Shown piece after piece: positions 73 to 17,435 of a stretch of 24,356 bases of DNA (positions within the stretch are counted from its first letter, which is position 1; each line of letters begins with the position of its first letter). The position numbers and the translations under genes were made by a program. Origin of the DNA: a virus. Lineage: Duplodnaviria > Caudoviricetes. The notes beneath the pieces were generated by a model. It had not been told where the DNA came from and ran no database searches. It saw nothing but the letters and a program-made list of their open reading frames with translations. The stretch is taken from the IMG/VR virus record IMGVR_UViG_3300020045_020342, positions 1 through 24,356 of that record, one strand, 5' to 3'.

Positions 73-1540
73 TAGTTGGCATTATAAATGGTTCACATTC
101 TACAAGCCGATGTTTATCTGTGGGCATTATTGATCCTGCAGGCTGATCTATAGACTGATTTTGTGCATTTTTACCGAAATGTTTATCTAAAAAAAACTGT
201 GGTTGAACCAAAGCCAGCTTATCTCTCGTTAAAAGTGTTGGTGCCGCTTCGTTTACATCGTTCACTTTGCTGCTGTGATTATAATTTACCAGGTATTCAG
301 GCTTTACAATTGCAATACTGTCTTTAGTTGGTATTGTTGGTGCAGGATTATCGACGGATGAAACATTTGCACCATTACCATGATAGGTTGAAAGAAACTC
401 TGGCTGCACTAAACCTAATCTATCCTGACAAACTAAAGCCGGTGCAGGATTTTCCAATGATGGTGGATAATGAACCCCGTTTTTATCGGTTGAATTATAT
501 TTCAAAAGCCATTTTGTTGTTACCAAATCCTGATTACCACCAGTAGCGGTTAAAGTGCGTGCAGGGCCATCAATATCTACCAATTTACTTTTAGGATCTC
601 CGGTATTTCTTTGTACCAAAAAAGATGGCTGCACTAAAGTTTGCCCACTTGCAGTTGTAATCGTTCCAGCAGGGCCATCTACAGGTATTACTTTACCAGC
701 TGGGCGGCCACTGTAATATTTGCTTATAAAAGCCTTATCCCCTTTTGCAACATATTTTAATAGTCCGGCGTATATCCTTTCCAGTGTTTTATCACTCAAA
801 GGTTTTTTACGGGTAAATATGCTTTCGCCTTCATCAGTAAAGTTTAATACATCTTTTACCGGCATCCACTTTTTAAGATGGTTAAACATGCCCTGCGATG
901 CCTTTTTGCTATGCGTTGGTTCCGGCCATACAATTGGTAACCCTTCCTTTGCAAAGCAACCAAACAGGCGGTTACGGCTTGTATACGCTCCAAAATCTGC
1001 ACTGTTCAATTCCTTCCAATCATCACGGTAACCAAAGCTGCAAACTTCATTGCGCCACCGCATAAAATCCTGCCCGTTTTTACGGCTAACAGGTTTACCA
1101 TTTTCATCCAACGGGCCCCAACTCATAAACTCCACCACATTTTCAATTTGCACATAATCCGGATCTATGGCATGTATGTATCGATAAAGATGTTCGGCAA
1201 GTGTACGGCTGTCAGCATCCCGTGCCTGGCCACCTTTAGCTTTACTAAAATTGGTACACTCTAAAGATGCCCACAGTATCAATTTTGCATCTGGAAACTT
1301 TTTACGGTACTTATTAACCAGTTTAATTAAGCCGGTTAATTTAAGCTTTCGTATATCTTCCTCATAATGTTTTACATCAGGATGATTAAGCCAATGGCTT
1401 TTTATCGCCTTTGGATCATGGTTTACGCAGGCAATTATTTTGGCAATTTTATTACCATCAATTTCTGCATCTACAAAGCCGGTGGTAGTACCGCCAAAGC
1501 CGCAAAAAAGATCAACAATTATAAACAGCGGATCGCTCAT
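67..1540 (-). CDS. Phage C5 DNA cytosine methyltransferase, 3' end truncated
   Basis: Absent from the ORF track because it has no stop in the window. Manual translation from ATG 1540: motif I IVDLFCGFGG, catalytic WASLECTNFSKAKGG, motif VI QIENVVEF, motif VIII DFGAYTSRNRLF. Confidence 0.93.
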
Positions 1541-1662
1541 TTTCTTTTAGCCTTTACTTTATGCTTAATAATTTCCTTTACGGTTGTTGCTGGCCGGCGC
1601 TTTGCCATTTTTTCAGTTACAAAACGGCCTGTTTTTGCACTGCGGTAAACTGTTTGTTTCAT
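1537..1662 (-). CDS. Small basic protein, 41 aa
   Basis: MKQTVYRSAKTGRFVTEKMAKRRPATTVKEIIKHKVKAKRK. Fills the gap between genes, and its TGA overlaps the methylase ATG (ATGA coupling). Confidence 0.75.
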   Translation of the reverse strand: MKQTVYRSAKTGRFVTEKMAKRRPATTVKEIIKHKVKAKRK

Positions 1663-1672
1663 ACTTAAAATT

Positions 1673-2494
1673 TTATTGTTTTGGAAAATCGTTATATAGC
1701 TGGCCATCCAATATTCTACCAGCTTTTTTCTTACCTATTTTAACCATGGTTTGTCCATCTGTATAATCAATCATTTTGCCATGATACAATCGACCTTTTT
1801 CACCTGGCCACCACTCACCCCACTGCTTAAAGAAAAAAGCCACACCAGCTTCAATACATTGTTGCCTTATCAACCGTACCGAATCCGGATGCATTGGCCT
1901 GGCACCAGGGCCACTTTCACCACCAACAATTACCCAATCAATTCCTTTATCTAAAACACTAATAGCATATTTCTTTTCATCGCCAACCATAATAGTATTC
2001 AAATCAATAATCCCTAATAATGGCTCACAACTTAAAAACCTTACCTCAGCAGGCACCTGCAAAAGCAATGGTATCCGTTCATCTGCCGTTGCCTGATCTT
2101 CTACACTTACACCTACCCATACATGCGGCATCAATGGCTCTGTAACCTCACGTTTAAAGTATTCAATCATCCTATCAGGCCGCTTTGTTAATATCTGATA
2201 TATATGCCCGTTAATACCAGTACGCCTGGTAACTCCCAATACACGATCTACAAAATCAAACGGTACATCTTCGTGAAACAGATCGCTCATACTATTTACA
2301 AATACCATGGTTGGCTTTTTCCAACGGAAAGGATGGTTTAAACGATCTTCATGGCAAATAATATTCTTAAAGCTTCCCTTACCATTAAACCGCTCATACA
2401 TCCTTTCGGCATAGCAATTTTTACAGCCCTGGCTAACTTTTGTACAGCCGGTTACCGGGTTCCATGTCTTATCAGTCCACTCTATTTTGCTCAT
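1673..2494 (-). CDS. Phage Gp37/Gp68 (DUF5131) family radical-SAM-like protein
   Basis: IEWTDKTWNPVTGCTKVSQGCKNCYA, FVNSMSDLFH, LTKRP, SCEPLLG, WVIVGGESG, FFFKQWG. Confidence 0.95.
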   Translation of the reverse strand: MSKIEWTDKTWNPVTGCTKVSQGCKNCYAERMYERFNGKGSFKNIICHEDRLNHPFRWKKPTMVFVNSMSDLFHEDVPFDFVDRVLGVTRRTGINGHIYQILTKRPDRMIEYFKREVTEPLMPHVWVGVSVEDQATADERIPLLLQVPAEVRFLSCEPLLGIIDLNTIMVGDEKKYAISVLDKGIDWVIVGGESGPGARPMHPDSVRLIRQQCIEAGVAFFFKQWGEWWPGEKGRLYHGKMIDYTDGQTMVKIGKKKAGRILDGQLYNDFPKQ

Positions 2495-2503
2495 ATAGCT
2501 GAT

Positions 2504-2800
2504 TTAATTAAATTCATAATGCTTATTCACCTTTACAATAGTTGCTATAAAAGGAATACCCTGTAATTCGCTGGCTTTTTCTATCTGGTTCATCAATACA
2601 CCAGAACCTGTAAAAACAACATGCTGTTTTTCATCAACCTTTATTTGCAGCTGTAGGTATTTTGTACCAGGCTTTTTGGTTGAATCTTCAATGCGGTAAT
2701 CTTGCACCGCTATTTCGGTATTCAAAATATCATCTACACTTAGTTTGGTGCCAACAAAACTTCGTTCCTTATCTATACCTAATTCGCTAAACCGCTTCAT
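2504..2800 (-). CDS. 98-aa protein overlapping the RT stop; candidate non-Avd DGR accessory factor
   Basis: Likely start MKRFSELG at 2800, overlapping the RT stop by 14 bp. Alternating beta-type patterns (YLQLQIKV, HVVFTGS, PFIATIVKV). Confidence 0.7.
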   Translation of the reverse strand: MKRFSELGIDKERSFVGTKLSVDDILNTEIAVQDYRIEDSTKKPGTKYLQLQIKVDEKQHVVFTGSGVLMNQIEKASELQGIPFIATIVKVNKHYEFN

Positions 2801-3746
2801 GTAATAATGTTTTAAAAAGATTTTTACTATTGCACCATTTGCCCCAGCCATTGTACGATGCTACCGATGCCGGGTTAATACCCTTTGCCACTTTACGGGC
2901 AAAATTCTGCTTAATGCTTTTGCGCAACCGGGTATGGGTGTGGTAAAACACGTAACCAACAAAATCAACACCACGGGCGGCCACAGGAAATACTTGCCAG
3001 TTCGATTTAACCGAAAGCCTTAATTTATTTTGTAAGTATTGTTCAATGTCAGCAAACAGGTTGTGCAAGTGCTGTTTACTGTCCGATAAAAAAACCAGAT
3101 CATCAGCATATCGGAAATAATATTTTACCCCTTTGGTTTCCTTCAACCAGTGATCAAAATAACTTAGATAGAAGTTTGCGAAATACTGGCTTAAATAATT
3201 GCCGATGGGTAACCCAGGAGCACTGTTTATTATGCCATCAAGTAAAGAAAGTAAATCGGCATCTTTAAACTTTCTGCGCAGCAATTGTTTTAAAACTATG
3301 TGATCAATATTTGGATAAAACTTTTTAATATCCAGCTTTAAACAATAGGTAGTACCGGCTACATCCTTTAATGCATGTTTAACGGCATTTGCGGCAGCAT
3401 GTATGCCTTTTCCTTTTATGCAGCTGTAAGTATCGCTTGTAAAAGTTTGCACAAATACAGGCTCTAAAACATTCATTATAGCATGATGGGTTATGCGGTC
3501 GGGGTAGTATGGTAAACGAAATATTTCACGCTCTTTTGGTTCATAAATTTTAAAAGTACTGTAGGCAGATGTTTGGTAACTTTTATTTACCAACGCCTGG
3601 TGCAGTTTTAAAATATTATCCTCTTTATTTTTATCATGTACAATTACACCAAACTGCTTTGCCTTACCTTTTCGGGCAATGGCATCGGCCAGCTGCAGGT
3701 TTTCTACACTGCATATTTGTTGATATAAATTGTTCATTCTTTTCAT
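2787..3746 (-). CDS. DGR reverse transcriptase (about 319 aa)
   Basis: EPKEREIF, PDRITHHA, YSCIKGKG, LKLDIKKFYPNI, GLPIGNYLSQ, YFRYADD, GVDFVGY. No maturase or endonuclease domain. Start MKRMNNLY at 3746 preferred over 3851. Confidence 0.96.
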   Translation of the reverse strand: MKRMNNLYQQICSVENLQLADAIARKGKAKQFGVIVHDKNKEDNILKLHQALVNKSYQTSAYSTFKIYEPKEREIFRLPYYPDRITHHAIMNVLEPVFVQTFTSDTYSCIKGKGIHAAANAVKHALKDVAGTTYCLKLDIKKFYPNIDHIVLKQLLRRKFKDADLLSLLDGIINSAPGLPIGNYLSQYFANFYLSYFDHWLKETKGVKYYFRYADDLVFLSDSKQHLHNLFADIEQYLQNKLRLSVKSNWQVFPVAARGVDFVGYVFYHTHTRLRKSIKQNFARKVAKGINPASVASYNGWGKWCNSKNLFKTLLHEAV

Positions 3747-3854
3747 TGCCTTTGCTTTTAAAAGTCGCCTTCGTACATTCAGCACTACCAACGCCTTTCG
3801 TAATAATGTCATTTTTTGCCAAGGGGCAAGGTTTGCACCGGTAAAAAACATCTT
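3747..3854 (-). ncRNA. TR-RT spacer of the DGR RNA with hairpin TTGCC-CCTT-GGCAA (3816-3829)
   Basis: Lies between TR and RT, and the inverted repeat is visible. A role in cDNA priming is inferred by analogy to the Bordetella BPP-1 spacer. Confidence 0.55.
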
Positions 3855-3932
3855 GCATAGGTGAGCCCTGCCATTCGTATTCGTATTCGTCCAGTTGTAA
3901 TTCGATTCGTTGAACTGAAAGCCTGAACCTGA
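3855..3932 (-). repeat. DGR template repeat (TR), 78 bp, 24 adenines
   Basis: tca ggt tca ggc ttt cag ttc aac gaa tcg aat tac aac tgg acg aat acg aat acg aat ggc agg gct cac cta tgc. Intergenic and AAY-rich. Confidence 0.96.
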
Positions 3933-3973
3933 TCACGAAAGAACCGGGCTAAACCGGCACACAACCCTAATTT

Positions 3974-4390
3974 TTATTTGCTATTGTATTTCAAAAACAG
4001 GTTAACAGACTTGTATAAGTCAGTGAATTGTTGCCCTGCATAATCGCTCCTTTCCTCATCTTTGAAGCAAAGGCGAGCCCCGCCATACGTAAACGAATTC
4101 GTCCAGCGGCAAGTCGACACGTAGAACCGAAAGCCCGAACCCGAACCATCTGCGGCACCACCTTCAAACCATGGCCTCCACTTACGTTGGCTGGTATTGT
4201 TAAAATCCGGCTTAAACTCTTCTACACCTGGTTCATCATTATTTATGGCTTCGGTTATGATGAAAAGTTTATAGATACTGGTTACAGCATCTTTATGACG
4301 ATCAGGTATATTTTCTACACCTGGCAGGTCGTTGGGGTTTACACCTGTTTGTTTACAGGCATCTTCAAATGTTTTTATATCAGTGTACAT
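3974..4390 (-). CDS. DGR target protein 1 (138 aa)
   Basis: Contains VR1 (SGSGFRFYVSTCRWTNSFTYGGARLC). Paralogue of the next two genes. Confidence 0.93.
   Translation of the reverse strand: MYTDIKTFEDACKQTGVNPNDLPGVENIPDRHKDAVTSIYKLFIITEAINNDEPGVEEFKPDFNNTSQRKWRPWFEGGAADGSGSGFRFYVSTCRWTNSFTYGGARLCFKDEERSDYAGQQFTDLYKSVNLFLKYNSK
4067..4144 (-). repeat. Variable repeat VR1
   Basis: Ungapped match to TR over 78 bp with 17 mismatches, all at TR adenines. Confidence 0.96.
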
Positions 4391-4417
4391 GGTAATTTTT
4401 TTTGTTGGTTTAAAATA

Positions 4418-4819
4418 TCAATCCAAAATCAGGTACAATTCTTTGTACAGATCACTAAAATATTCGTTCATGTGATCGGCCCGTGCTTCGTCTTTTAAAG
4501 CAAGGCGAGCCCCGCCAATCGAACTCGTAAACGTCCAGTGGTAAGTCGATCCGTTGAACCGAAAGCCCGAACCCGAACTATCACCACCTATATACCACGG
4601 AAACCATTTTTCCTGATCTTCGTTATTGTAATCTGCTTTCCATTCTGGCTGATCTGGTTCATCATTGTTAATAGCATGTATGATAACCTGCAGCTTTAGC
4701 AATGCCAGCATACCACGGCTTACTTTTTCGGGCAATGCCGATAGGTCGGGAAGCTTAGAAAGATCTATTTCTTTCTGCGTGGCAAAAGCCGCCTCAACCG
4801 TTTTAATTTCTTTGTACAT
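4418..4819 (-). CDS. DGR target protein 2 (133 aa)
   Basis: Contains VR2 (SGSGFRFNGSTYHWTFTSSIGGARL). Shares AINNDEP and KWxPW with target 1. Confidence 0.93.
   Translation of the reverse strand: MYKEIKTVEAAFATQKEIDLSKLPDLSALPEKVSRGMLALLKLQVIIHAINNDEPDQPEWKADYNNEDQEKWFPWYIGGDSSGSGFRFNGSTYHWTFTSSIGGARLALKDEARADHMNEYFSDLYKELYLILD
4502..4576 (-). repeat. Variable repeat VR2
   Basis: Ungapped match to TR 3858-3932 over 75 bp with 14 mismatches, all at TR adenines. Confidence 0.96.
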
Positions 4820-4825
4820 AAAATA

Positions 4826-5320
4826 TTATTTGATTGGGTTTAAAAACTTGTTCCAAATAGGCAAAAACTGTTGCCCGAAATAATCACTCAACTCCTTAGT
4901 GGGTAAGCAAAGGCGAGCCCCGCCAGCCGTACTCGCATACGTCCAGCTGTAATGCGAGTCGAAGAACCGAAAGCCCGAACCCGATTGATAATTATCAAAC
5001 CATGGGTACCACTTTTTTTGGTTATCATTAGTCCAATCCAGTACAACCTTTTCGCTTAGTGCTTCGCTGATGATATCAAGCATTACTGCTGCATTTGCAA
5101 ATTCCTGTCGGCTGTTTACAGGTTTTGGGTAAGGCAAAGCAGTTTCCACCGGTATGCCTAATTCTACGCAGGCATCTTCAAAACTCTTTACCCTATCAGT
5201 TACTTTGGTATTAAAATCTACCTGGCCATTAACCAGATCTTTTAATAGTTGCTTGCCACATGCATCGGCATTATGGAAAGCCTTTAACACATTTGATGAT
5301 TCAATTTTTACTGTTGACAT
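4826..5320 (-). CDS. DGR target protein 3 (164 aa)
   Basis: Contains VR3 (SGSGFRFFDSHYSWTYASTAGGARLC). Shares VKSFEDAC and KWYPWF; has an N-terminal extension of about 40 aa. Confidence 0.93.
   Translation of the reverse strand: MSTVKIESSNVLKAFHNADACGKQLLKDLVNGQVDFNTKVTDRVKSFEDACVELGIPVETALPYPKPVNSRQEFANAAVMLDIISEALSEKVVLDWTNDNQKKWYPWFDNYQSGSGFRFFDSHYSWTYASTAGGARLCLPTKELSDYFGQQFLPIWNKFLNPIK
4907..4984 (-). repeat. Variable repeat VR3
   Basis: Ungapped match to TR over 78 bp with 16 mismatches, all at TR adenines. Confidence 0.96.
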
Positions 5321-5615: not shown

Positions 5616-5963
5616 TTATGCTCTTTTTATCTCCCTGGTTTCAAAACAATCGCCATGCTGTGGGTTATTTTTCATAAACAGGCGGCTGTAGTAACAGGTG
5701 TAATTATTATTTATTTTAAATCCATCATCATCCATACTTTGTGTGGCAACCTCCCAGCGTATGCGTTCAATTATCATTTTACTACCCATGGTTTTATGCC
5801 CACTTTCCAGCAGCTGCAAAGCAAACTTTTCAAACAACCGGTACACCTGCGGGTACTTTAAATGAAACCGTAAAAAACGTTCGTGCTGGCTTTCGTTTGG
5901 GTTAAACAGATCCAGCTGCGGTGCCCCATCGTTATCAGTTTGTATGGCGGTTCTTAAATTCAT
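5616..5963 (-). CDS. Hypothetical phage protein
   Basis: Likely start MNLRTA at 5963 (ATGA overlap with upstream gene). Motifs IIERIRWE and FKINNNY..YYSRLF. Confidence 0.75.
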   Translation of the reverse strand: MNLRTAIQTDNDGAPQLDLFNPNESQHERFLRFHLKYPQVYRLFEKFALQLLESGHKTMGSKMIIERIRWEVATQSMDDDGFKINNNYTCYYSRLFMKNNPQHGDCFETREIKRA

Positions 5964-6502
5964 GGTGTTAATGCATAAGGCACTTTGCACAACCTTTTAA
6001 AATGATGTAAAAAATAATCACGGGCAGCATCGGCAACCAATGGCAGGCCGGTGTGCTTAAGCATTTTGTTTTCCCACTCATATTCTAATGCCTCTTTGTC
6101 AATTTCGGCTATCAATTTTTTTTCAGGCATGCTTACATAAATGTTATACCGTTGTTCTATGGCCATCTGTGTACGTTGTTGCATATCCCTGTAACCGGGT
6201 ATTAAATCCTTCATTGGTGTTGCCAAATCACGCCATATATATTCGTGTGCATCGTGCAGCAAACAGTAAAATGGCAGGCGGTGGTTATTGGGGTGTTTTT
6301 CTTCGGCCCGTAAAGCACACCATACACTATGCTCGGCAACGCTGTAAGGCATTTTAGTAGCATTTATAAACCTGCACTCACGGCTAAGCGATACCGCTAT
6401 ATCCATCACAAACACATCGGTACTTTGTGGCTTTTTAAGGTTAAAATACACACCACTAAAAGTGCGCACACAACCTGGTTTATATAAATCTTCGCTAATC
6501 AT
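5960..6502 (-). CDS. HD-domain phosphohydrolase (YfdR/YfbR-like nucleotidase)
   Basis: DIAVSLSRECRF, YSVAEHSV, LLHDAHEY..D..TPMK, IDKEALEYE. Confidence 0.88.
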   Translation of the reverse strand: MISEDLYKPGCVRTFSGVYFNLKKPQSTDVFVMDIAVSLSRECRFINATKMPYSVAEHSVWCALRAEEKHPNNHRLPFYCLLHDAHEYIWRDLATPMKDLIPGYRDMQQRTQMAIEQRYNIYVSMPEKKLIAEIDKEALEYEWENKMLKHTGLPLVADAARDYFLHHFKRLCKVPYALTP

Positions 6503-8365: not shown

Positions 8366-8423
8366 TTTGTTGCTTTTTAAGTCATACCACTTTTAGGGTA
8401 TTGCGGTTTATTATTTTATGCCG

Positions 8424-8431
8424 TACATTTG
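8424..8431 (+). promoter_or_regulatory. Bacteroidota -7 promoter element TAnnTTTG (TACATTTG) upstream of the repressor
   Basis: Consensus match about 90 bp upstream of ATG 8524. Confidence 0.45.
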
Positions 8432-8450
8432 TAATAACAATTCAAAATAA

Positions 8451-8496
8451 TGTAAGATTTCTGACATTTCAAAATATTATTGTAAGATTTTTTACA
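8451..8496. promoter_or_regulatory. Two 16-bp imperfect palindromic operators
   Basis: TGTAAGATTTCTGACA (8451-8466) and TGTAAGATTTTTTACA (8481-8496), 30 bp apart, between divergent regulators. Confidence 0.75.
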
Positions 8497-8523
8497 TTTA
8501 ATTATACACATTATGTTAATAAC

Positions 8524-9087
8524 ATGACATTAGACATAAAAAAAATTAGAAAAAAACACCGTTTAACTCAAGAGCAGATTGCAGAGAAATTGGGTATTAC
8601 CAGGCAGTTAGTAATTGCAATTGAAAAGGGCCAACAAATGAGTAAAGTAGTTGAAAAGGCGTTGGAAAATTTTGATAAAGCCGAGATTATACCTAATATG
8701 GCTCAAGAACCACAAGCAGTATACGAAAGACACAACCACATTAGCACCGAAACCCTGGAGGAAAAAATACTTAATGATTACAAAGCTTTAAAAAGCATTG
8801 CAGAAAGCAACCGCATTTTAGCAGAGGCACAAAAAATTGCCGCAGAAAGTGGTAAAATACTTGCTGAATCGCAAAAGCAATTGGTTAATACCAATGCCGA
8901 ACTTGTATCTCTTTATAAACACAGTGCTACTGGCAATGCTGATGAAGGTAAATCTGCAGACGTTCAATCCAAACTTGATACTCTTCTGGAAGCGATAGCC
9001 GAAGTGGCTGCGGGCAAGAAGTTTCATTCAAAACAGGAAGCCCTTGCCACAATAGGCAAAAAGTTTTATGAGCGTTCTGGTTCTTAA
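8524..9087 (+). CDS. CI-like XRE-family repressor without a peptidase S24 domain
   Basis: MTLDIKKIRKKHRLTQEQIAEKLGITRQLVIAIEKG HTH; C-terminal heptad repeats. ATG 8524 preferred over 8401. Confidence 0.85.
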   Translation: MTLDIKKIRKKHRLTQEQIAEKLGITRQLVIAIEKGQQMSKVVEKALENFDKAEIIPNMAQEPQAVYERHNHISTETLEEKILNDYKALKSIAESNRILAEAQKIAAESGKILAESQKQLVNTNAELVSLYKHSATGNADEGKSADVQSKLDTLLEAIAEVAAGKKFHSKQEALATIGKKFYERSGS

Positions 9088-9226: not shown

Positions 9227-9655
9227 ATGGCATCCAAAAAAAAAATTAAAATGGATGGCTGGGCATGGGCCAGTGTGGTATTGGCGATTGCATTAATTTC
9301 ATTTATATGCTACGATCAGTTTTATAGAAAACCTTCTACAAAATATAGCCATAACTCTTTAACAGAAATTAATATATCGGCCGATATCTATGCAATGGCT
9401 TACAGAAACAACAGCATAGCAGCCGATGCAGTTTATTTAGGCAAACCGCTTACAGTAACCGGCCAGGTGGCACGTATTGGTAAAGATGCCAACAATAAAA
9501 TTTACATAGCCCTGCACATTGATACCGGCGATGATGTGTATTGCTATACAAGCGATGAAAATTTTGCTATGCAATTGCAACCCGGCAGCCAAATAAGCTT
9601 TGCAGGCACTGGCGGCGGCAATTCAATTGTAGGCCCAATTATAAATAGTAAGTAA
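9227..9655 (+). CDS. Membrane-anchored OB-fold (tRNA_anti-like) protein
   Basis: N-terminal TM, then AYRNNSIAADAVYLGKPLTVTGQVARI. Confidence 0.7.
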   Translation: MASKKKIKMDGWAWASVVLAIALISFICYDQFYRKPSTKYSHNSLTEINISADIYAMAYRNNSIAADAVYLGKPLTVTGQVARIGKDANNKIYIALHIDTGDDVYCYTSDENFAMQLQPGSQISFAGTGGGNSIVGPIINSK

Positions 9656-13327: not shown

Positions 13328-14185
13328 TTATTGCACCCCCCTGCCGAGTGCGTCTTGAAACCTCTCAACTATTGTATTTAATGTTAGCATCTGTGCAGCC
13401 GATAAACCGAGCCCGATAGTCGCAAATGCACATTCCCTGTTTGAGAAAAACCCTGCCGTTCCTGATGTATTTCTTGCTCCGATATAAATTTCATAATCGT
13501 TAAGCAACCCTGCTGCCGTACCTGTTAACTGTGTTGTATTTCTTTGCCCAATCATGGCATTACTTGCAATTCTACTTGCTATAAAATATCCGCTGGCATC
13601 TGTATTCGATGCTGTAATAAATCCACCATTCACCGAATTTGGTTCAAAGTACATACCATCCGAAAATCTTAATATCAGCTGGTTCTCTCTGCTGGTAGTT
13701 CCAAAGCATCCCATTTCAATCATGCTTTCACCGCTGCTACCAACTGTTCTTGAATAGTAACTTATATGTGAACTATCATTCATCCCATTGGTAAATGGTA
13801 TATAAAATGTTTGAGCATAACCTGTTGAACCGTTAGGTAAAGCACCTGTACCCGAGTGTGTCCAGCCACCATTAAATACCAATCTGAAATTAGCATCTGC
13901 ATCTACAGGCGATTTTAAATTCCATTTATGAGTGGATGCCGTACCTCCTATCATTGGATATATCGCCTGCATTGATGCCCATAAGGAACTATCCTTTAAA
14001 TCTGTTACAAGCCCACAAATTGCAGATGAATCAGTACCGGTTAAACCGAGTAGAGTAATAAACGCAGCCGCATCTGTGTCGCACGAAGATGAGCCTCCCC
14101 CTTTCTTTGCAATAAGTTTAAACATCGGAGATTGAGCCGATGCAAAAACAGGGATAAGAAATAGTATCAATAAGAATTTACGCAT
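13328..14185 (-). CDS. Signal-peptide protein with LamG/ConA-like beta-sandwich
   Basis: MRKFLLILFLIPVFASA-Q; NGSTGYAQT, IYIGARN, GLSAAQMLTL. Confidence 0.65.
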   Translation of the reverse strand: MRKFLLILFLIPVFASAQSPMFKLIAKKGGGSSSCDTDAAAFITLLGLTGTDSSAICGLVTDLKDSSLWASMQAIYPMIGGTASTHKWNLKSPVDADANFRLVFNGGWTHSGTGALPNGSTGYAQTFYIPFTNGMNDSSHISYYSRTVGSSGESMIEMGCFGTTSRENQLILRFSDGMYFEPNSVNGGFITASNTDASGYFIASRIASNAMIGQRNTTQLTGTAAGLLNDYEIYIGARNTSGTAGFFSNRECAFATIGLGLSAAQMLTLNTIVERFQDALGRGVQ

Positions 14186-16458
14186 ACCCATTTGTTATTT
14201 CCGTAAGAAGATGTTGTGTAATACTGTAATACAACAGTTAGCGTAGATGTTGTTACTGTGGTTGTTGGTAATGAAACAGAACTGCTTACAAATGATGCTC
14301 CCCATGTGATCGCCCTTGTTGCAGTTCCGGTTATTTGAATTTCCAGTATATCGCCGTCTACTGGCGTACCTGATAAATTTGTGGTCATGCTGGTTATATC
14401 AGCAGCTAATGCAGTCAATTTGTAAATATCAACGTTATCAGTATTTATCGTTGGGGTTGCACTGCTTGTTGTACTACCTACTCTTGCTGTCCATCTACCT
14501 GTAGTTGCGCCGTTTGCTGCCACTGGCCCTGCTGTGGATGCTATCCATGCTGTTGATGTAATACCCGATAAAAGTAATTCCTGGTATTGTGTCTTTAATA
14601 ATACGCTGCCAACCCCATTAATTGTATTGCCACCTGCTGCTGCTAATGTCACTGTATTTGCAGTTGCATCTGTTCTTACAATAGATACCTGCTTACCTAC
14701 AGTTGCAACATCTGCTGCGTAAAGTGAAAGGGTAATATTACCGCTTGTTGCATCTACATAATATTTATTTGTGTTAATATCTGCTGATGCATTTGCTGTA
14801 ATTGTTCTGTTTAAAACATTGCTATTATTATCTAATAATAATGGATTTGGCGCACCAAATATTTCAGGGCAACGCAGCCTTACTAAGTTTGCAATAATCA
14901 TATTACCCCTATCGTTAGGATGAATATCAAAAGCATCTAAAGAACCAATTAATGTAGCACCTGGATCTATTAGTTTTACATTTTTTCTTGCACACACATT
15001 TATAAATGCCGTATCGTAACCAAACCCAGTTGGTGGTAGCTTTAAAACGATTGGCACAATTGCCGGCACATGATTTTGTAACGTATCTATAACCCTTGTT
15101 AAGTTTGCGCTGAATAATACAGAACCGGAAGAATTTCCAATATCATTCCAACCTATTTCAATCAATGCATATTTGGGGTTTGTCGCAAATACTTCCCCCA
15201 TCCTTAATAATAACTCATCCGTTCTATCACTGGCTCCTGCAAAAACAGCGTAGGTTTTTCCTGTACCATTAAAAAGTTTATTTGTAAAAGTATTCTGCGG
15301 TGTTGAGGTGTTATATCCAGAAAGAACACTGTTACCAATACATACCATATCTATATTCTTATAAGAATTTATTTCAACTTTCATTTTATGAATAGCATAT
15401 ACACCAGCCGGGCTACTGCCAATTGTGCCATAACAATAATATCCTGTGTTTGCTACTTGTGGGTTACTGCCAATAACCATAGTGTATGTATAAGGAATTG
15501 AAATGCGTTCAATAACGCTTTTATTATAAGATAACGTAGTATCTATGCGGCTAAAATCAACCTGTATAGTTGGTGAATTAAAACTGATTTCTATACGGTA
15601 GTTTGCACCGTTAGTCATAGCTATACTCGCAGGCGTATATATAGGAGTACTGGCAACTAAAGTTTCGGTTGAGAAACCACCAATAGCATATAAATTTATT
15701 GTCCAGTTGCTTGCATCTACATACACCGCCCTTGCCACAACAGAACTTCTACTAAAACTATTGGCACTTAATTTTCCTAAAAACAACCCCTCTGTTGTTG
15801 CCGTTGGTTTTGTTGTTAATGTAAACTCTGTTGTTAGTTTATAACTTGTAGCCGCAGAAACTAAACCATAATTTGTAAAATTATTAAAGTAACCAGTGCC
15901 ACCAGAAACGCTATGGTTTAAAGTTGTATCAACCATGTAGCCATAGGTCTGTAAAGTGTCCTTTTTATTATTTATCTGCGTTTGTAATAAACCGTTAACG
16001 CCACTTAAATAACCTATTTCTGTTGCCGTAGTTGCAGAATGTGTAGGCACTCCGTTAGCATCCGAAATTAAAGCCCTGCTGGCTGTTATAGCAGCAGCGG
16101 CACTTATTGATGTACCTAAAGATGCATAATAACCTAACCTGTATTGTGCACCACTATTAACCGTGCCGCTACCACCACCGCCACCCGTGCTATCTTTAAA
16201 AGCAAAAGTTTCAGTACCTGCTTTTACATAAAAAACACTATCGGCCCGGCGGTAAAAACTGGTTACACCAACTTTACTTAAGGCATTAATATTGCCTTGC
16301 AAAATGCGGTTAAGTTTTGTAGCGGTAATACCACCTACAGCATTGGGCACTATATCAGTGTTAATGGCTGTACGCAGGGCCGCAGTATCGTTTATGGTTT
16401 GCGCCCTGGCAGCTGTGGCAAACAATACAATAAATAAAAAGGCAAGTATTTTTTTCAT
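14167..16458 (-). CDS. Large tail-associated protein with signal peptide and SGNH/GDSL esterase domain
   Basis: MKKILAFLFIVLFATAARA-Q; SGNH blocks CIGNSV, G, EIGWND, DIHPNDRG; fibre-like T/G/S-rich flanks. Confidence 0.75.
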   Translation of the reverse strand: MKKILAFLFIVLFATAARAQTINDTAALRTAINTDIVPNAVGGITATKLNRILQGNINALSKVGVTSFYRRADSVFYVKAGTETFAFKDSTGGGGGSGTVNSGAQYRLGYYASLGTSISAAAAITASRALISDANGVPTHSATTATEIGYLSGVNGLLQTQINNKKDTLQTYGYMVDTTLNHSVSGGTGYFNNFTNYGLVSAATSYKLTTEFTLTTKPTATTEGLFLGKLSANSFSRSSVVARAVYVDASNWTINLYAIGGFSTETLVASTPIYTPASIAMTNGANYRIEISFNSPTIQVDFSRIDTTLSYNKSVIERISIPYTYTMVIGSNPQVANTGYYCYGTIGSSPAGVYAIHKMKVEINSYKNIDMVCIGNSVLSGYNTSTPQNTFTNKLFNGTGKTYAVFAGASDRTDELLLRMGEVFATNPKYALIEIGWNDIGNSSGSVLFSANLTRVIDTLQNHVPAIVPIVLKLPPTGFGYDTAFINVCARKNVKLIDPGATLIGSLDAFDIHPNDRGNMIIANLVRLRCPEIFGAPNPLLLDNNSNVLNRTITANASADINTNKYYVDATSGNITLSLYAADVATVGKQVSIVRTDATANTVTLAAAGGNTINGVGSVLLKTQYQELLLSGITSTAWIASTAGPVAANGATTGRWTARVGSTTSSATPTINTDNVDIYKLTALAADITSMTTNLSGTPVDGDILEIQITGTATRAITWGASFVSSSVSLPTTTVTTSTLTVVLQYYTTSSYGNNKWVCVNSY

Positions 16459-16460
16459 AA

Positions 16461-17435
16461 TTAAAAACGTATTAAGGGTATTTTACCAATATTTTTTGGG
16501 CGGGTTTCGGTACCGCCGGTTGCGGTTGTTGTGTATGTTTTTGTAGTGGGCACACCGGGCGGGCCATCGGTTACACCAAGTGTTGCAGCAGATGCGGTAT
16601 GCTGTACCTGGCCAGTGGTAACATCATGCGTATGCGCTTTTAAAGCATCTTCTTCTAACCCACCGGCATATTCGTGCAGGCGGCCGGCATCCAGCCCACG
16701 GGTAAGATCCAGCGATCTATCAAACAAACCACGCTCATCTGGCAAACGAAAAGTTGTGCTACCATTACCCAGGCTAAAGCAGCCACGGTACACATTGGTA
16801 TTACCACCACTACCGGCCAGCCAGTCGGCATCGGTTACTACTTCCTGCCCGGTGGTAAGGGTTTGTACAAATTCCCAAAGGCGTGGGTAATCGGCACGGT
16901 TTACAACAGATCCATCCAACACCAGGTTATTGCCTTTTAGTTTACGGGCATGGTAGCTTTCGCCAACTGCATCAAAATTGCCAAAGCTTGCGCCAACCAG
17001 CCAGTAAGTTCCGGCGCTTATAAGTTCCAGCCGTTCGCCGCTGTACATGTACATAAGTGTACGGGTATCGGCAATGGCGTATTTTATAGTATCGGCAGCA
17101 CTTATGGTGGCGCATTTACCGGCCGTCATTAAACTGCTTAAAGGAAACCTATCGCCAACAGTGGTGGTGGCCACGCTGGGCATTGTAATGGTTATATGCC
17201 CGGTGGCTGTAAGTTCCTGCAGTATATTGGCATCGGCTACCGTTAATGTTTTATTAGCGGTAACTGCGGCTACGCTTGCAAGCCTGTATAAATTATTTTT
17301 TAAATACAGGGTACGGTTTACCAGCGTTTGTGCCTGTGCATTAGCAATAGCACCAGCACCACCCAATACCAGATCAGTAGTTTCTATTTGTATTACGCCG
17401 CCGGAAAAGGCGGCTGTTTCAGTTAAGTTTGCCAT
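16461..17435 (-). CDS. Tail fibre protein with tail-collar domain
   Basis: MANLTE...GGAGAIANAQAQTLVNRTLYLK; RADYPRLW, GNGSTTFRLPDERGLF, ETRPKNI. Confidence 0.88.
   Translation of the reverse strand: MANLTETAAFSGGVIQIETTDLVLGGAGAIANAQAQTLVNRTLYLKNNLYRLASVAAVTANKTLTVADANILQELTATGHITITMPSVATTTVGDRFPLSSLMTAGKCATISAADTIKYAIADTRTLMYMYSGERLELISAGTYWLVGASFGNFDAVGESYHARKLKGNNLVLDGSVVNRADYPRLWEFVQTLTTGQEVVTDADWLAGSGGNTNVYRGCFSLGNGSTTFRLPDERGLFDRSLDLTRGLDAGRLHEYAGGLEEDALKAHTHDVTTGQVQHTASAATLGVTDGPPGVPTTKTYTTTATGGTETRPKNIGKIPLIRF

What the first reader, a model, noticed from the sequence alone, without database searches (positions are those of the whole stretch)
2504..5320. Three-target DGR diversifying small early-operon proteins, not a tail fibre
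Seen: one TR (3855-3932) aligns without gaps to three VRs in three tandem paralogues of 138, 133 and 164 aa. The 17, 14 and 16 mismatches all fall on TR adenines, and a YADD RT follows. The cassette lies in the Cro-side early operon among HD hydrolase, DUF5131 and methylase genes, 9-14 kb from the fibre genes, where I found no VR. The targets have no signal peptide or TM, and the VR is internal, followed by about 25-30 aa. Established: the model phage DGR (BPP-1) diversifies the C-terminus of a tail adhesin. Inference: this is an intracellular hypervariable binder family, for example anti-defence, host-takeover or phage-competition proteins, possibly hetero-oligomeric. No A-to-N change in this TR can create a stop codon. 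My codon count gives roughly 7e11 possible peptides per target.
Basis: partly seen in the sequence, partly recalled or inferred. Interest (0 to 1): 0.95.

Follow-up and report, generated by a model that had tools for sequence, protein, structure and literature searches.

The report
Phage hypermutator aimed at early proteins
This temperate phage fragment carries an intact-looking mutagenic retroelement whose template matches a short loop in three small early-region proteins rather than the tail fibre, a widespread arrangement that surveys had already listed but never explained, and these proteins likely act inside the cell as variable binders of host proteins.

Summary
In detail: one TR (3855-3932) matches three VRs with adenine-only differences, in three tandem paralogues (164, 133, 138 aa) before a YADD RT, and no other VR lies in the window. 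It is not rare: of the 60 nearest-RT viral loci with enough upstream DNA, all have this target family and 52 have two or more adenine-biased VRs. The family is Roux 2021's PC_00007 ('non-structural/unknown'); a two-target cassette is in Wu 2018's reference set, and this scan reported the arrangement twice on other DNA. Corrections: the RT likely starts at 3746 (319 aa); about 1.5e10 peptides, not 7e11. Additions: a predicted helical target scaffold with no solved-structure match, resembling tail targets only in the VR; a predicted OB-fold gene (2504-2800) coupled to the RT, no Avd; a covarying RNA stem bracketing the TR; a gut-phage lineage with all-unique VRs when the RT is present and repeated VRs when it is absent. 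Intracellular binding is inferred; no ligand is known. New member of a known, unexplained kind.

The parts
4826..5320 (-). Target 1, long form, 164 aa (PHROG 11581; Roux PC_00007 family)
4907..4984 (-). VR1, codons 113-138 of target 1; 16 of 16 mismatches at TR adenines
4418..4819 (-). Target 2, short form, 133 aa
4499..4576 (-). VR2; 14 adenine mismatches, 3 non-adenine ones at the extreme 3' end (4499-4501)
3974..4390 (-). Target 3, short form, 138 aa
4067..4144 (-). VR3; 17 of 17 mismatches at TR adenines
3855..3932 (-). Template repeat; likely mutable core 3873-3911 (18 A); 3' end 3855-3872 likely IMH*-like
3953..3966 (-). 5' arm of a long-range RNA stem that brackets the TR
3830..3842 (-). 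3' arm of the long-range stem
3751..3833 (-). TR-RT spacer RNA = Rfam RT-17 (RF03020), including the hairpin at 3816-3829
   Evidence: (43.2 bits, gathering 40.4)
2787..3746 (-). DGR reverse transcriptase, 319 aa from the conserved start, RYADD
2504..2800 (-). 98-aa gene overlapping the RT stop; predicted OB (SSB-like) fold; candidate accessory factor (PHROG 19665; resembles Wu 2018 PAG1 by eye)
5960..6502 (-). Context: HD-type nucleotide phosphatase in the same leftward gene run
1673..2494 (-). Context: DUF5131 gene downstream of the cassette
8401..9087 (+). Context: HTH repressor divergent from the gene run that holds the cassette
13328..17435 (-). Context: tail fibre / appendage genes, no VR

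Best explanation
This is an intact-looking, Avd-less DGR whose single template matches a short internal loop in three small early-region phage proteins, which likely work inside the infected cell as rapidly re-specified binders of variable host proteins, most plausibly defence components. Steps: (shown) TR, three adenine-biased VRs, YADD RT and a small gene overlapping the RT stop lie in one co-oriented run opposite the repressor. (Inferred from established DGR mechanism) the TR is transcribed within a structured RNA, copied with errors at adenines, and the cDNA replaces one VR at a time from the conserved 3' end; the RNA fold is supported by covariation, and the small predicted OB-fold protein likely serves as the RT's nucleic-acid-binding helper in place of Avd. 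(Predicted) the targets are acidic helical scaffolds displaying the same VR class that tail-fibre DGRs use, up to about 1.5e10 peptides each. (Inferred, untested) they are made early after infection or induction, stay in the cytoplasm, and paralogues give parallel or multivalent specificities.
For: Cassette and A-bias. Family-wide: 60 of 60 nearest-RT loci with 1.5 kb upstream hold the target family, 52 have two or more A-biased VRs, 1714 A versus 25 non-A mismatches. Activity in relatives: in one gut lineage 21 of 21 RT-bearing contigs have unique VRs in both targets, heterozygosity 0.44-0.74 at the 12 core A sites versus about 0.01 at non-A sites, TR nearly fixed. No tail target in 5 of 5 records 89-100% complete. 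Commonest shared neighbours of 46 selected loci are repressors, methylases, transposition, primase, helicase and helicase-loader genes; none of the 55 cluster representatives scanned hit a tail fibre family. Cultured phages Versailles and LoVEphage carry a homologue among recombination or methylase genes, and the TR of their tail DGR matches it (14/0 and 19/0). Protein-level selection: Tyr, Asp, Gly, Phe commonest at AAY codons, Pro 3 seen versus 9.9 expected. Targets are kept after loss of TR-RT (28 of 51 loci). Literature reads such targets the same way: PMC8008677, PMC12629997. RNA stem: 95.9% of cells paired, 12 of 16 pairs with two-sided changes. Helper: present at 78 of 80 RT loci, fused to the RT in hankyphage p00, OB-fold hits dominate.
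Against: No ligand, expression or localisation data exist for any member that I could find; no PADLOC, Pfam or NCBIfam family names the targets. Genome position is indirect: head, portal, terminase and neck genes lie within 10 kb in some relatives, and one homologue is annotated 'tail protein' in Versailles although it lies among recombination genes. Roux 2021 notes that PC_00007 could be uncharacterised structural proteins. The VR loop is the low-confidence part of the model (pLDDT 57-58). Nothing here separates anti-defence from host-takeover binding. Activity of this particular copy is not shown.
Confidence: 0.45

Rival explanations
1. Host-adaptation adaptors: the proteins bind housekeeping machinery (replisome, RNA polymerase, proteases) and the VR retunes them to each new Bacteroidota host.
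For: Neighbours are replication, recombination and transcription genes; in LoVEphage and Versailles the same TR serves the tail protein and this protein, which would couple entry into a new host with adaptation inside it.
Against: Conserved host machinery seldom calls for 1e10 variants or for all-unique alleles within one phage lineage; two to four paralogues per phage fit multiple changing ligands better.
Confidence: 0.2
2. Minor virion or ejected proteins that contact the cell envelope, encoded outside the structural module.
For: The VR is of the same class as tail-fibre VRs (CLec3); Roux leaves the possibility open; one GenBank annotation says tail protein.
Against: Early-region position on the repressor-divergent strand; no fibre, collar or trimerisation domain in any of 109 members; 1.6% structural prediction; found in myo-type (this window) and other phage types alike.
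Confidence: 0.12
3. Phage-versus-phage weapons: binders that recognise proteins of competing or superinfecting phages and co-resident prophages.
For: Temperate carriers in prophage-rich Bacteroidota; rapidly changing ligands would justify hypervariation.
Against: The cassette lies in the lytic-side gene run, likely repressed in the lysogen, when exclusion would be needed.
Confidence: 0.1
4. The proteins have a fixed function and the loop is varied only to escape host sensors, or the targets are near-neutral cargo of a mobile retroelement.
For: TR-RT-helper is absent in 28 of 51 related gut contigs that keep the targets, so continuous variation is dispensable.
Against: Aromatic-rich, proline-poor VR composition fits a binding surface; 4,895 clusters at 50% identity and multi-copy retention argue for selected function.
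Confidence: 0.1

Closest known systems
Roux et al. 2021 (PMC8144416) target cluster PC_00007, 'Phage_other', DGR clade 1, RT cluster REF_DGR_[t122]
   Same: Four of six record ids of my related loci were found in the (cut) supplementary table and all four list a PC_00007 target with VR at 0.71-0.78 of the protein; Dyadobacter Leaf189 is listed with three such targets, as I find in L075. Match is by record id, RT length and contig length, not by sequence.
   Different: The paper gives the cluster one supplementary sentence in what I saw (non-structural/unknown); no cassette anatomy, fold, helper or function.
Wu et al. 2018 (PMC5758913) Lineage 3, CLec3 class, entries t120 and t121
   Same: t120 has two tandem small targets (about 156 and 123 aa) and t121 one, with this family's motifs by eye; Lineage 3 lacks avd; PAG1 resembles the 98-aa gene by eye.
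   Different: Filed as CLec3 by VR, with the note that t121's target aligns poorly to other CLec3 genes; PAG1 was called tenuous (3 DGRs, upstream of the TR in t122). Here the scaffold models as helical and the small gene follows the RT in 78 of 80 loci.
Remote second targets of tail DGRs: Quimbyvirus (PMC8008677), four gut prophages (PMC12629997), LoVEphage, Versailles
   Same: Non-structural, early or counter-defence-region DGR target; LoVEphage and Versailles homologues score E 8e-35 and 1e-31 to my profile and match their TRs.
   Different: There one TR serves a tail protein and one remote small gene; here the DGR sits beside two to three small genes and has no tail target. That LoVEphage's gene equals the Quimbyvirus ORF is my inference from gene neighbourhood.
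Bordetella phage BPP-1 DGR (mtd, avd, TR, brt)
   Same: TR/VR pair, adenine-specific differences, RT, fixed TR/VR difference at the 3' end.
   Different: No Avd gene, targets are not tail adhesins, VR is internal, three targets, order targets-TR-RT-helper.
Rfam RT-17 RNA (RF03020)
   Same: The TR-RT spacer 3751-3833 passes the gathering score; two of five related loci also do.
   Different: The Rfam consensus holds the hairpins only; the long-range stem pairing the 5' leader with the sequence just after the TR is not in its structure line.

Membership tests
Diversity-generating retroelement | TR/VR repeats differing at TR adenines | tested here: met
   47 adenine mismatches, 3 non-adenine at one edge
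Diversity-generating retroelement | Intact RT with YxDD next to the TR | tested here: met
   PF00078, PHROG 1423, RYADD, open 319-aa frame
Diversity-generating retroelement | IMH/IMH* difference at the 3' end | tested here: inconclusive
   Family-wide fixed TR versus VR difference at the 3' end; function not testable
Diversity-generating retroelement | Ongoing adenine-restricted variation in the population | tested here: inconclusive
   No run listed for this DNA; met in a related gut lineage
BPP-1-type DGR | avd accessory gene | tested here: not met
   No room for a gene between target 3 and TR or TR and RT; no Avd hit among the flanking ORFs in Pfam or NCBIfam
BPP-1-type DGR | Target is a tail adhesin with C-terminal VR | tested here: not met
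   VR internal, 26-30 aa tails; no VR in the fibre genes
Roux PC_00007 / RT cluster t122 | Target clusters with PC_00007 sequences | tested here: met
   Indirect: homologous loci L002, L004, L065, L075 are listed as PC_00007 by record id; no PC profile was available
Wu Lineage 3 / CLec3 VR class | VR aligns with CLec3 VRs; no avd | tested here: met
   Profile match to six tail-target C-termini over the 31 VR columns, E 2.3e-6; t120/t121 by eye
C-type lectin fold target | CLec fold around the VR | tested here: inconclusive
   Model mainly helical, VR low confidence; no CLec among top rows, best Z 4.2; no homology to tail CLec3 domains outside the VR
OB-fold single-strand binding protein (98-aa gene) | OB beta-barrel | tested here: inconclusive
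   pLDDT 91.5; best Z 7.2, rmsd 2.8, 68 aligned, SSB/OB chains fill the list but Z is under 8; Atlas cluster with PF17427 in 44% of members; nucleic acid binding untested
Phage anti-defence protein | Neutralises a host defence system | not testable with these tools
   No family hit; needs bench assay

The most novel reading that the evidence does not exclude
Bacteroidota phages run an intracellular, antibody-like repertoire: the variable hairpin of a tail-fibre DGR was grafted onto a small helical early protein with an unsolved fold, duplicated, and given its own Avd-less DGR with an OB-fold helper, to neutralise changing host defence proteins; this would be the first DGR scaffold outside the C-type lectin fold and the first adaptive counter-defence system of phages.
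Probability: 0.3. Interest if true: 0.85.

Novelty: new member of a known kind. Interest (0 to 1): 0.5.

Why it matters
Phage DGRs are taught as tail-fibre mutators. This family is a large exception (4,895 clusters at 50% identity) that surveys filed as unknown. If the targets are cytoplasmic binders of host defence or core proteins, phages have a programmable counter-immunity repertoire. The question is now directly testable: cultured phages (LoVEphage, Versailles) carry homologues, a gut lineage offers natural DGR-positive and DGR-negative versions with many VR alleles, and the cassette is compact (319-aa RT, 98-aa helper, about 220-nt RNA), which also makes it a simple Avd-less model for how DGRs prime and home into internal VRs.

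Tried and rejected
Read mapping: no run was listed for this stretch, no RNA holder listed. Close relatives with DNA: exact 24-nt TR search in viral contigs gave 0; metagenome scan gave 3 distant loci. Complex prediction of target 1 with target 2 was not available, so oligomerisation is open. Fold search of target 1: no Foldseek match at E 0.001 in PDB, VIA best Z 4.2, PDB sequence search best E 3.1; BFVD and Atlas hits are only uncharacterised phage proteins; this does not prove a new fold. RT tree of 40 rows: quick tree only, two tail rows truncated or dropped, long branches, one-clade test unfinished; it does not show whether tail or small targets came first. Single-sequence RNA folding of the leader-TR-spacer is no better than shuffles (z 0.17); support comes from covariation only, and the structure was drawn from these same sequences. 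Promoter scan not above chance (33 versus 26.8). First VR count misplaced the TR window and was redone, where 3 of 60 loci still failed for that reason. Rejected: retron, group II intron or DRT identity of the RT (all below cut-offs; TR/VR present); the 354-aa RT start; the 7e11 figure; obligatory hetero-oligomer (single copies in L184, L197, LoVEphage; dispersed copies in Dyadobacter). Literature searches found no paper that tests these targets or names the OB-fold helper; subscription journals are mostly outside the library, and Roux supplements 9 and 12 were cut when stored.
Full report
Observation. The window is a 24,356-nt virus record held as one contig. It encodes P2-like baseplate and tail genes, a lysozyme, an integrase and an HTH repressor, so it is a fragment of a temperate myo-type phage; head genes are not in it. 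On the minus strand, diverging from the repressor, lie three paralogues of 164, 133 and 138 aa, a 78-nt TR, an RT and a small gene. The TR matches VR1 with 16 of 16 and VR3 with 17 of 17 mismatches at adenines, VR2 with 14 plus three non-adenine mismatches at the very end. No other site in the window has fewer than 26 non-adenine mismatches.

Corrections. Six TR adenines carry one and the same base in all three VRs. At the 3' end this is a family trait: most TRs and VRs differ in the same two positions under the R-L-C codons, and in 21 related RT-bearing contigs the equivalent sites are nearly invariant while core sites are highly variable. I read them as the IMH/IMH* difference described by Wu 2018 and the 5' ones as boundary differences (inference). 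The 18 core adenines give 1.46e10 peptides. The RT start conserved across relatives is 3746; the longer ORF runs through the RNA spacer.

Family. A profile of the targets finds 4,895 proteins at E 0.001 among 50%-identity representatives. A target-first search fetched 121 loci (best 80 of 283 viral, all 41 genomic); 34 of the 41 genomic records are labelled Bacteroidota. Counting the window, 67 have an RT behind the targets and 64 of these have two or more adenine-biased VRs (1978 adenine versus 60 other mismatches; many are near-copies of one gut lineage). An independent RT-first search (best 80 of 595) gave 60 loci with at least 1.5 kb upstream: all 60 hold the target family, 57 two or more copies, 52 two or more adenine-biased VRs and 6 three (1714 versus 25 mismatches). 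Three targets are thus an ordinary variant; two is the norm. Dyadobacter loci have copies dispersed up to about 9 kb from the RT. Eighteen of the top 150 profile hits are two-domain fusions (ranking by score favours them).

Activity. No reads were listed for this DNA. In one gut-phage lineage (51 loci), the 21 RT-bearing contigs have 21 different VRs in each target, with heterozygosity 0.44-0.74 at the 12 core adenine sites against about 0.01 at other sites, while the TR has 6 variants, 11 of 21 identical. Twenty-eight contigs lack TR, RT and helper (two junction types, 20 and 8) yet keep both targets, and there VR alleles repeat (12 of 20 unique; 7 and 4 of 8). Redundant assemblies may inflate repeats. 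Four of five such records have no RT anywhere, one has a hit elsewhere with internal TAG codons. In five RT-bearing records 89-100% complete the TR matches only itself and the two small targets.

Targets. AlphaFold2 on a 109-row alignment gives mean pLDDT 86.7, a helical body and a low-confidence VR loop. No solved structure matches; look-alikes are uncharacterised phage proteins. Against six tail-target C-termini only the 31 VR columns align. In LoVEphage and Versailles one TR matches both the tail protein and a remote homologue of this family lying among methylase or recombination genes (19/0 and 14/0 mismatches). So the VR is of the tail-type CLec3 class while the scaffold is not detectably related; a graft is the simplest reading but its direction is not shown (unresolved). 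The proteins are acidic (pI 4.8-5.7) without hydrophobic segments; at 627 AAY codons in 125 distinct VRs Tyr, Asp, Gly and Phe lead and Pro is depleted (3 versus 9.9; the expectation assumes the two adenines change independently). Shared neighbours across 46 selected loci are mainly repressor, methylase, transposition and replication genes; head, portal, terminase and neck genes occur within 10 kb in 4-7 loci per cluster, mostly on the other strand.

Machinery. There is no avd. A 98-aa gene overlapping the RT stop follows the RT in 65 of 67 target-first and 78 of 80 RT-first loci, is fused to the RT C-terminus in hankyphage p00 and L106, and also lies near tail-targeting RTs of LoVEphage, Versailles and an archaeal virus. 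Its model (pLDDT 91.5) draws OB/SSB chains throughout the list, best Z 7.2, below the level that alone proves kinship; the Atlas links it to a cluster with 44% phi29-type SSB. By eye it resembles PAG1 of Wu 2018. The TR-RT spacer is Rfam RT-17. In 32 aligned leaders-plus-spacers a stem pairs the 5' leader with the bases after the TR: 98.3% paired in that helix, 9 of 11 pairs with two-sided changes, slid controls 38-48%; RNAalifold finds the same stem. It is absent from the RT-17 structure line.

Mechanism. Shown: cassette, adenine bias, family-wide activity, RNA covariation, gene coupling. Inferred from the established DGR scheme: error-prone copying of the TR and replacement of each VR. Predicted: folds. 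Untested: cytoplasmic location, early expression, ligand. I put variable host defence proteins first (0.45), core-machinery adaptors second (0.2), then virion or ejected protein (0.12), phage competition (0.1) and evasion-only or cargo (0.1).

Known work. Roux 2021 (PMC8144416; read: abstract, part 1 of Results, sections 8 and 9, supplement passages and rows) classes PC_00007 as non-structural/unknown; four of six record ids I queried were found and all map to PC_00007, including three targets for Dyadobacter Leaf189. Wu 2018 (PMC5758913; read: parts 2-5 of 8, passages, supplement hits) includes t120 with two tandem small targets and t121, notes about 15% of DGRs have several targets and that Lineage 3 lacks avd. 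PMC8008677 and PMC12629997 (passages) describe remote second targets near counter-defence genes and suggest a conflict role. bioRxiv 2024.11.15.621889, PMC12694917, PMC10743442 and PMC8525569 (passages only) showed no treatment of this family in the passages seen; their supplements were not seen and may list it. This scan reported the arrangement twice and the OB-fold partner at least three times on other DNA; those notes are not independent support, and I had reached both readings before seeing them.

Verdict. A real, intact-looking member of a widespread, catalogued but unexplained class of phage DGRs. Not categorically new; the open question it poses is good and testable. Interest 0.5.

Noticed in passing
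L006, L008-L012, L036, L042 and others (51-locus gut lineage): TR-RT-helper is absent at two distinct junctions in 28 loci that keep both targets; many different VR alleles share one junction, suggesting recombination between phages or repeated loss.
   Followed up: partly
L026 and L032, both targets; L025: In RT-less contigs the two paralogues carry identical (0 differences) or near-identical (2) VR cores, against about 8 on average: possible gene conversion between targets.
   Followed up: no
window 4912-4924, 4504-4516, 4072-4084 (-): A 5-pair GC hairpin sits at the 3' end of all three VRs and is broken by two adenines in the TR; candidate homing signal inside coding sequence; conservation across the family not tested.
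   Followed up: no
L075 2355-15644; L084 5986-18422: Dyadobacter prophages spread three to four targets over about 12 kb of the early region, all matching one TR.
   Followed up: partly
P0014, P0024-P0032 and others: Natural fusions of two target domains (long plus short), each with a VR-like segment; DNA not available to confirm both are diversified.
   Followed up: partly
L068 5876-6356: About 370 extra nt with a possible small ORF lie between the RNA spacer and the RT start.
   Followed up: no
L096 7083-8120: A second RT-like ORF about 2 kb upstream of the target cluster.
   Followed up: no
L002 5737-5810: TR-VR pairs with six non-adenine mismatches and only 11 adenines: likely a decayed TR.
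   Followed up: no
window 14167-16458 (-): 763-aa tail-region protein with an SGNH/GDSL esterase domain, a candidate capsule-deacetylating appendage.
   Followed up: no
window 9227-9655 (+): Membrane-anchored OB-fold (tRNA_anti-like) gene with a weak superinfection-exclusion PHROG hit between repressor and integrase.
   Followed up: no
window 1537-1707 (-): 56-aa very basic ORF between DUF5131 and the methylase, no family hit.
   Followed up: no
L215 (vir525) 3992-4279: An archaeal virus with a tail-targeting DGR has the same small OB-fold-type gene behind its RT (E 8e-22).
   Followed up: partly
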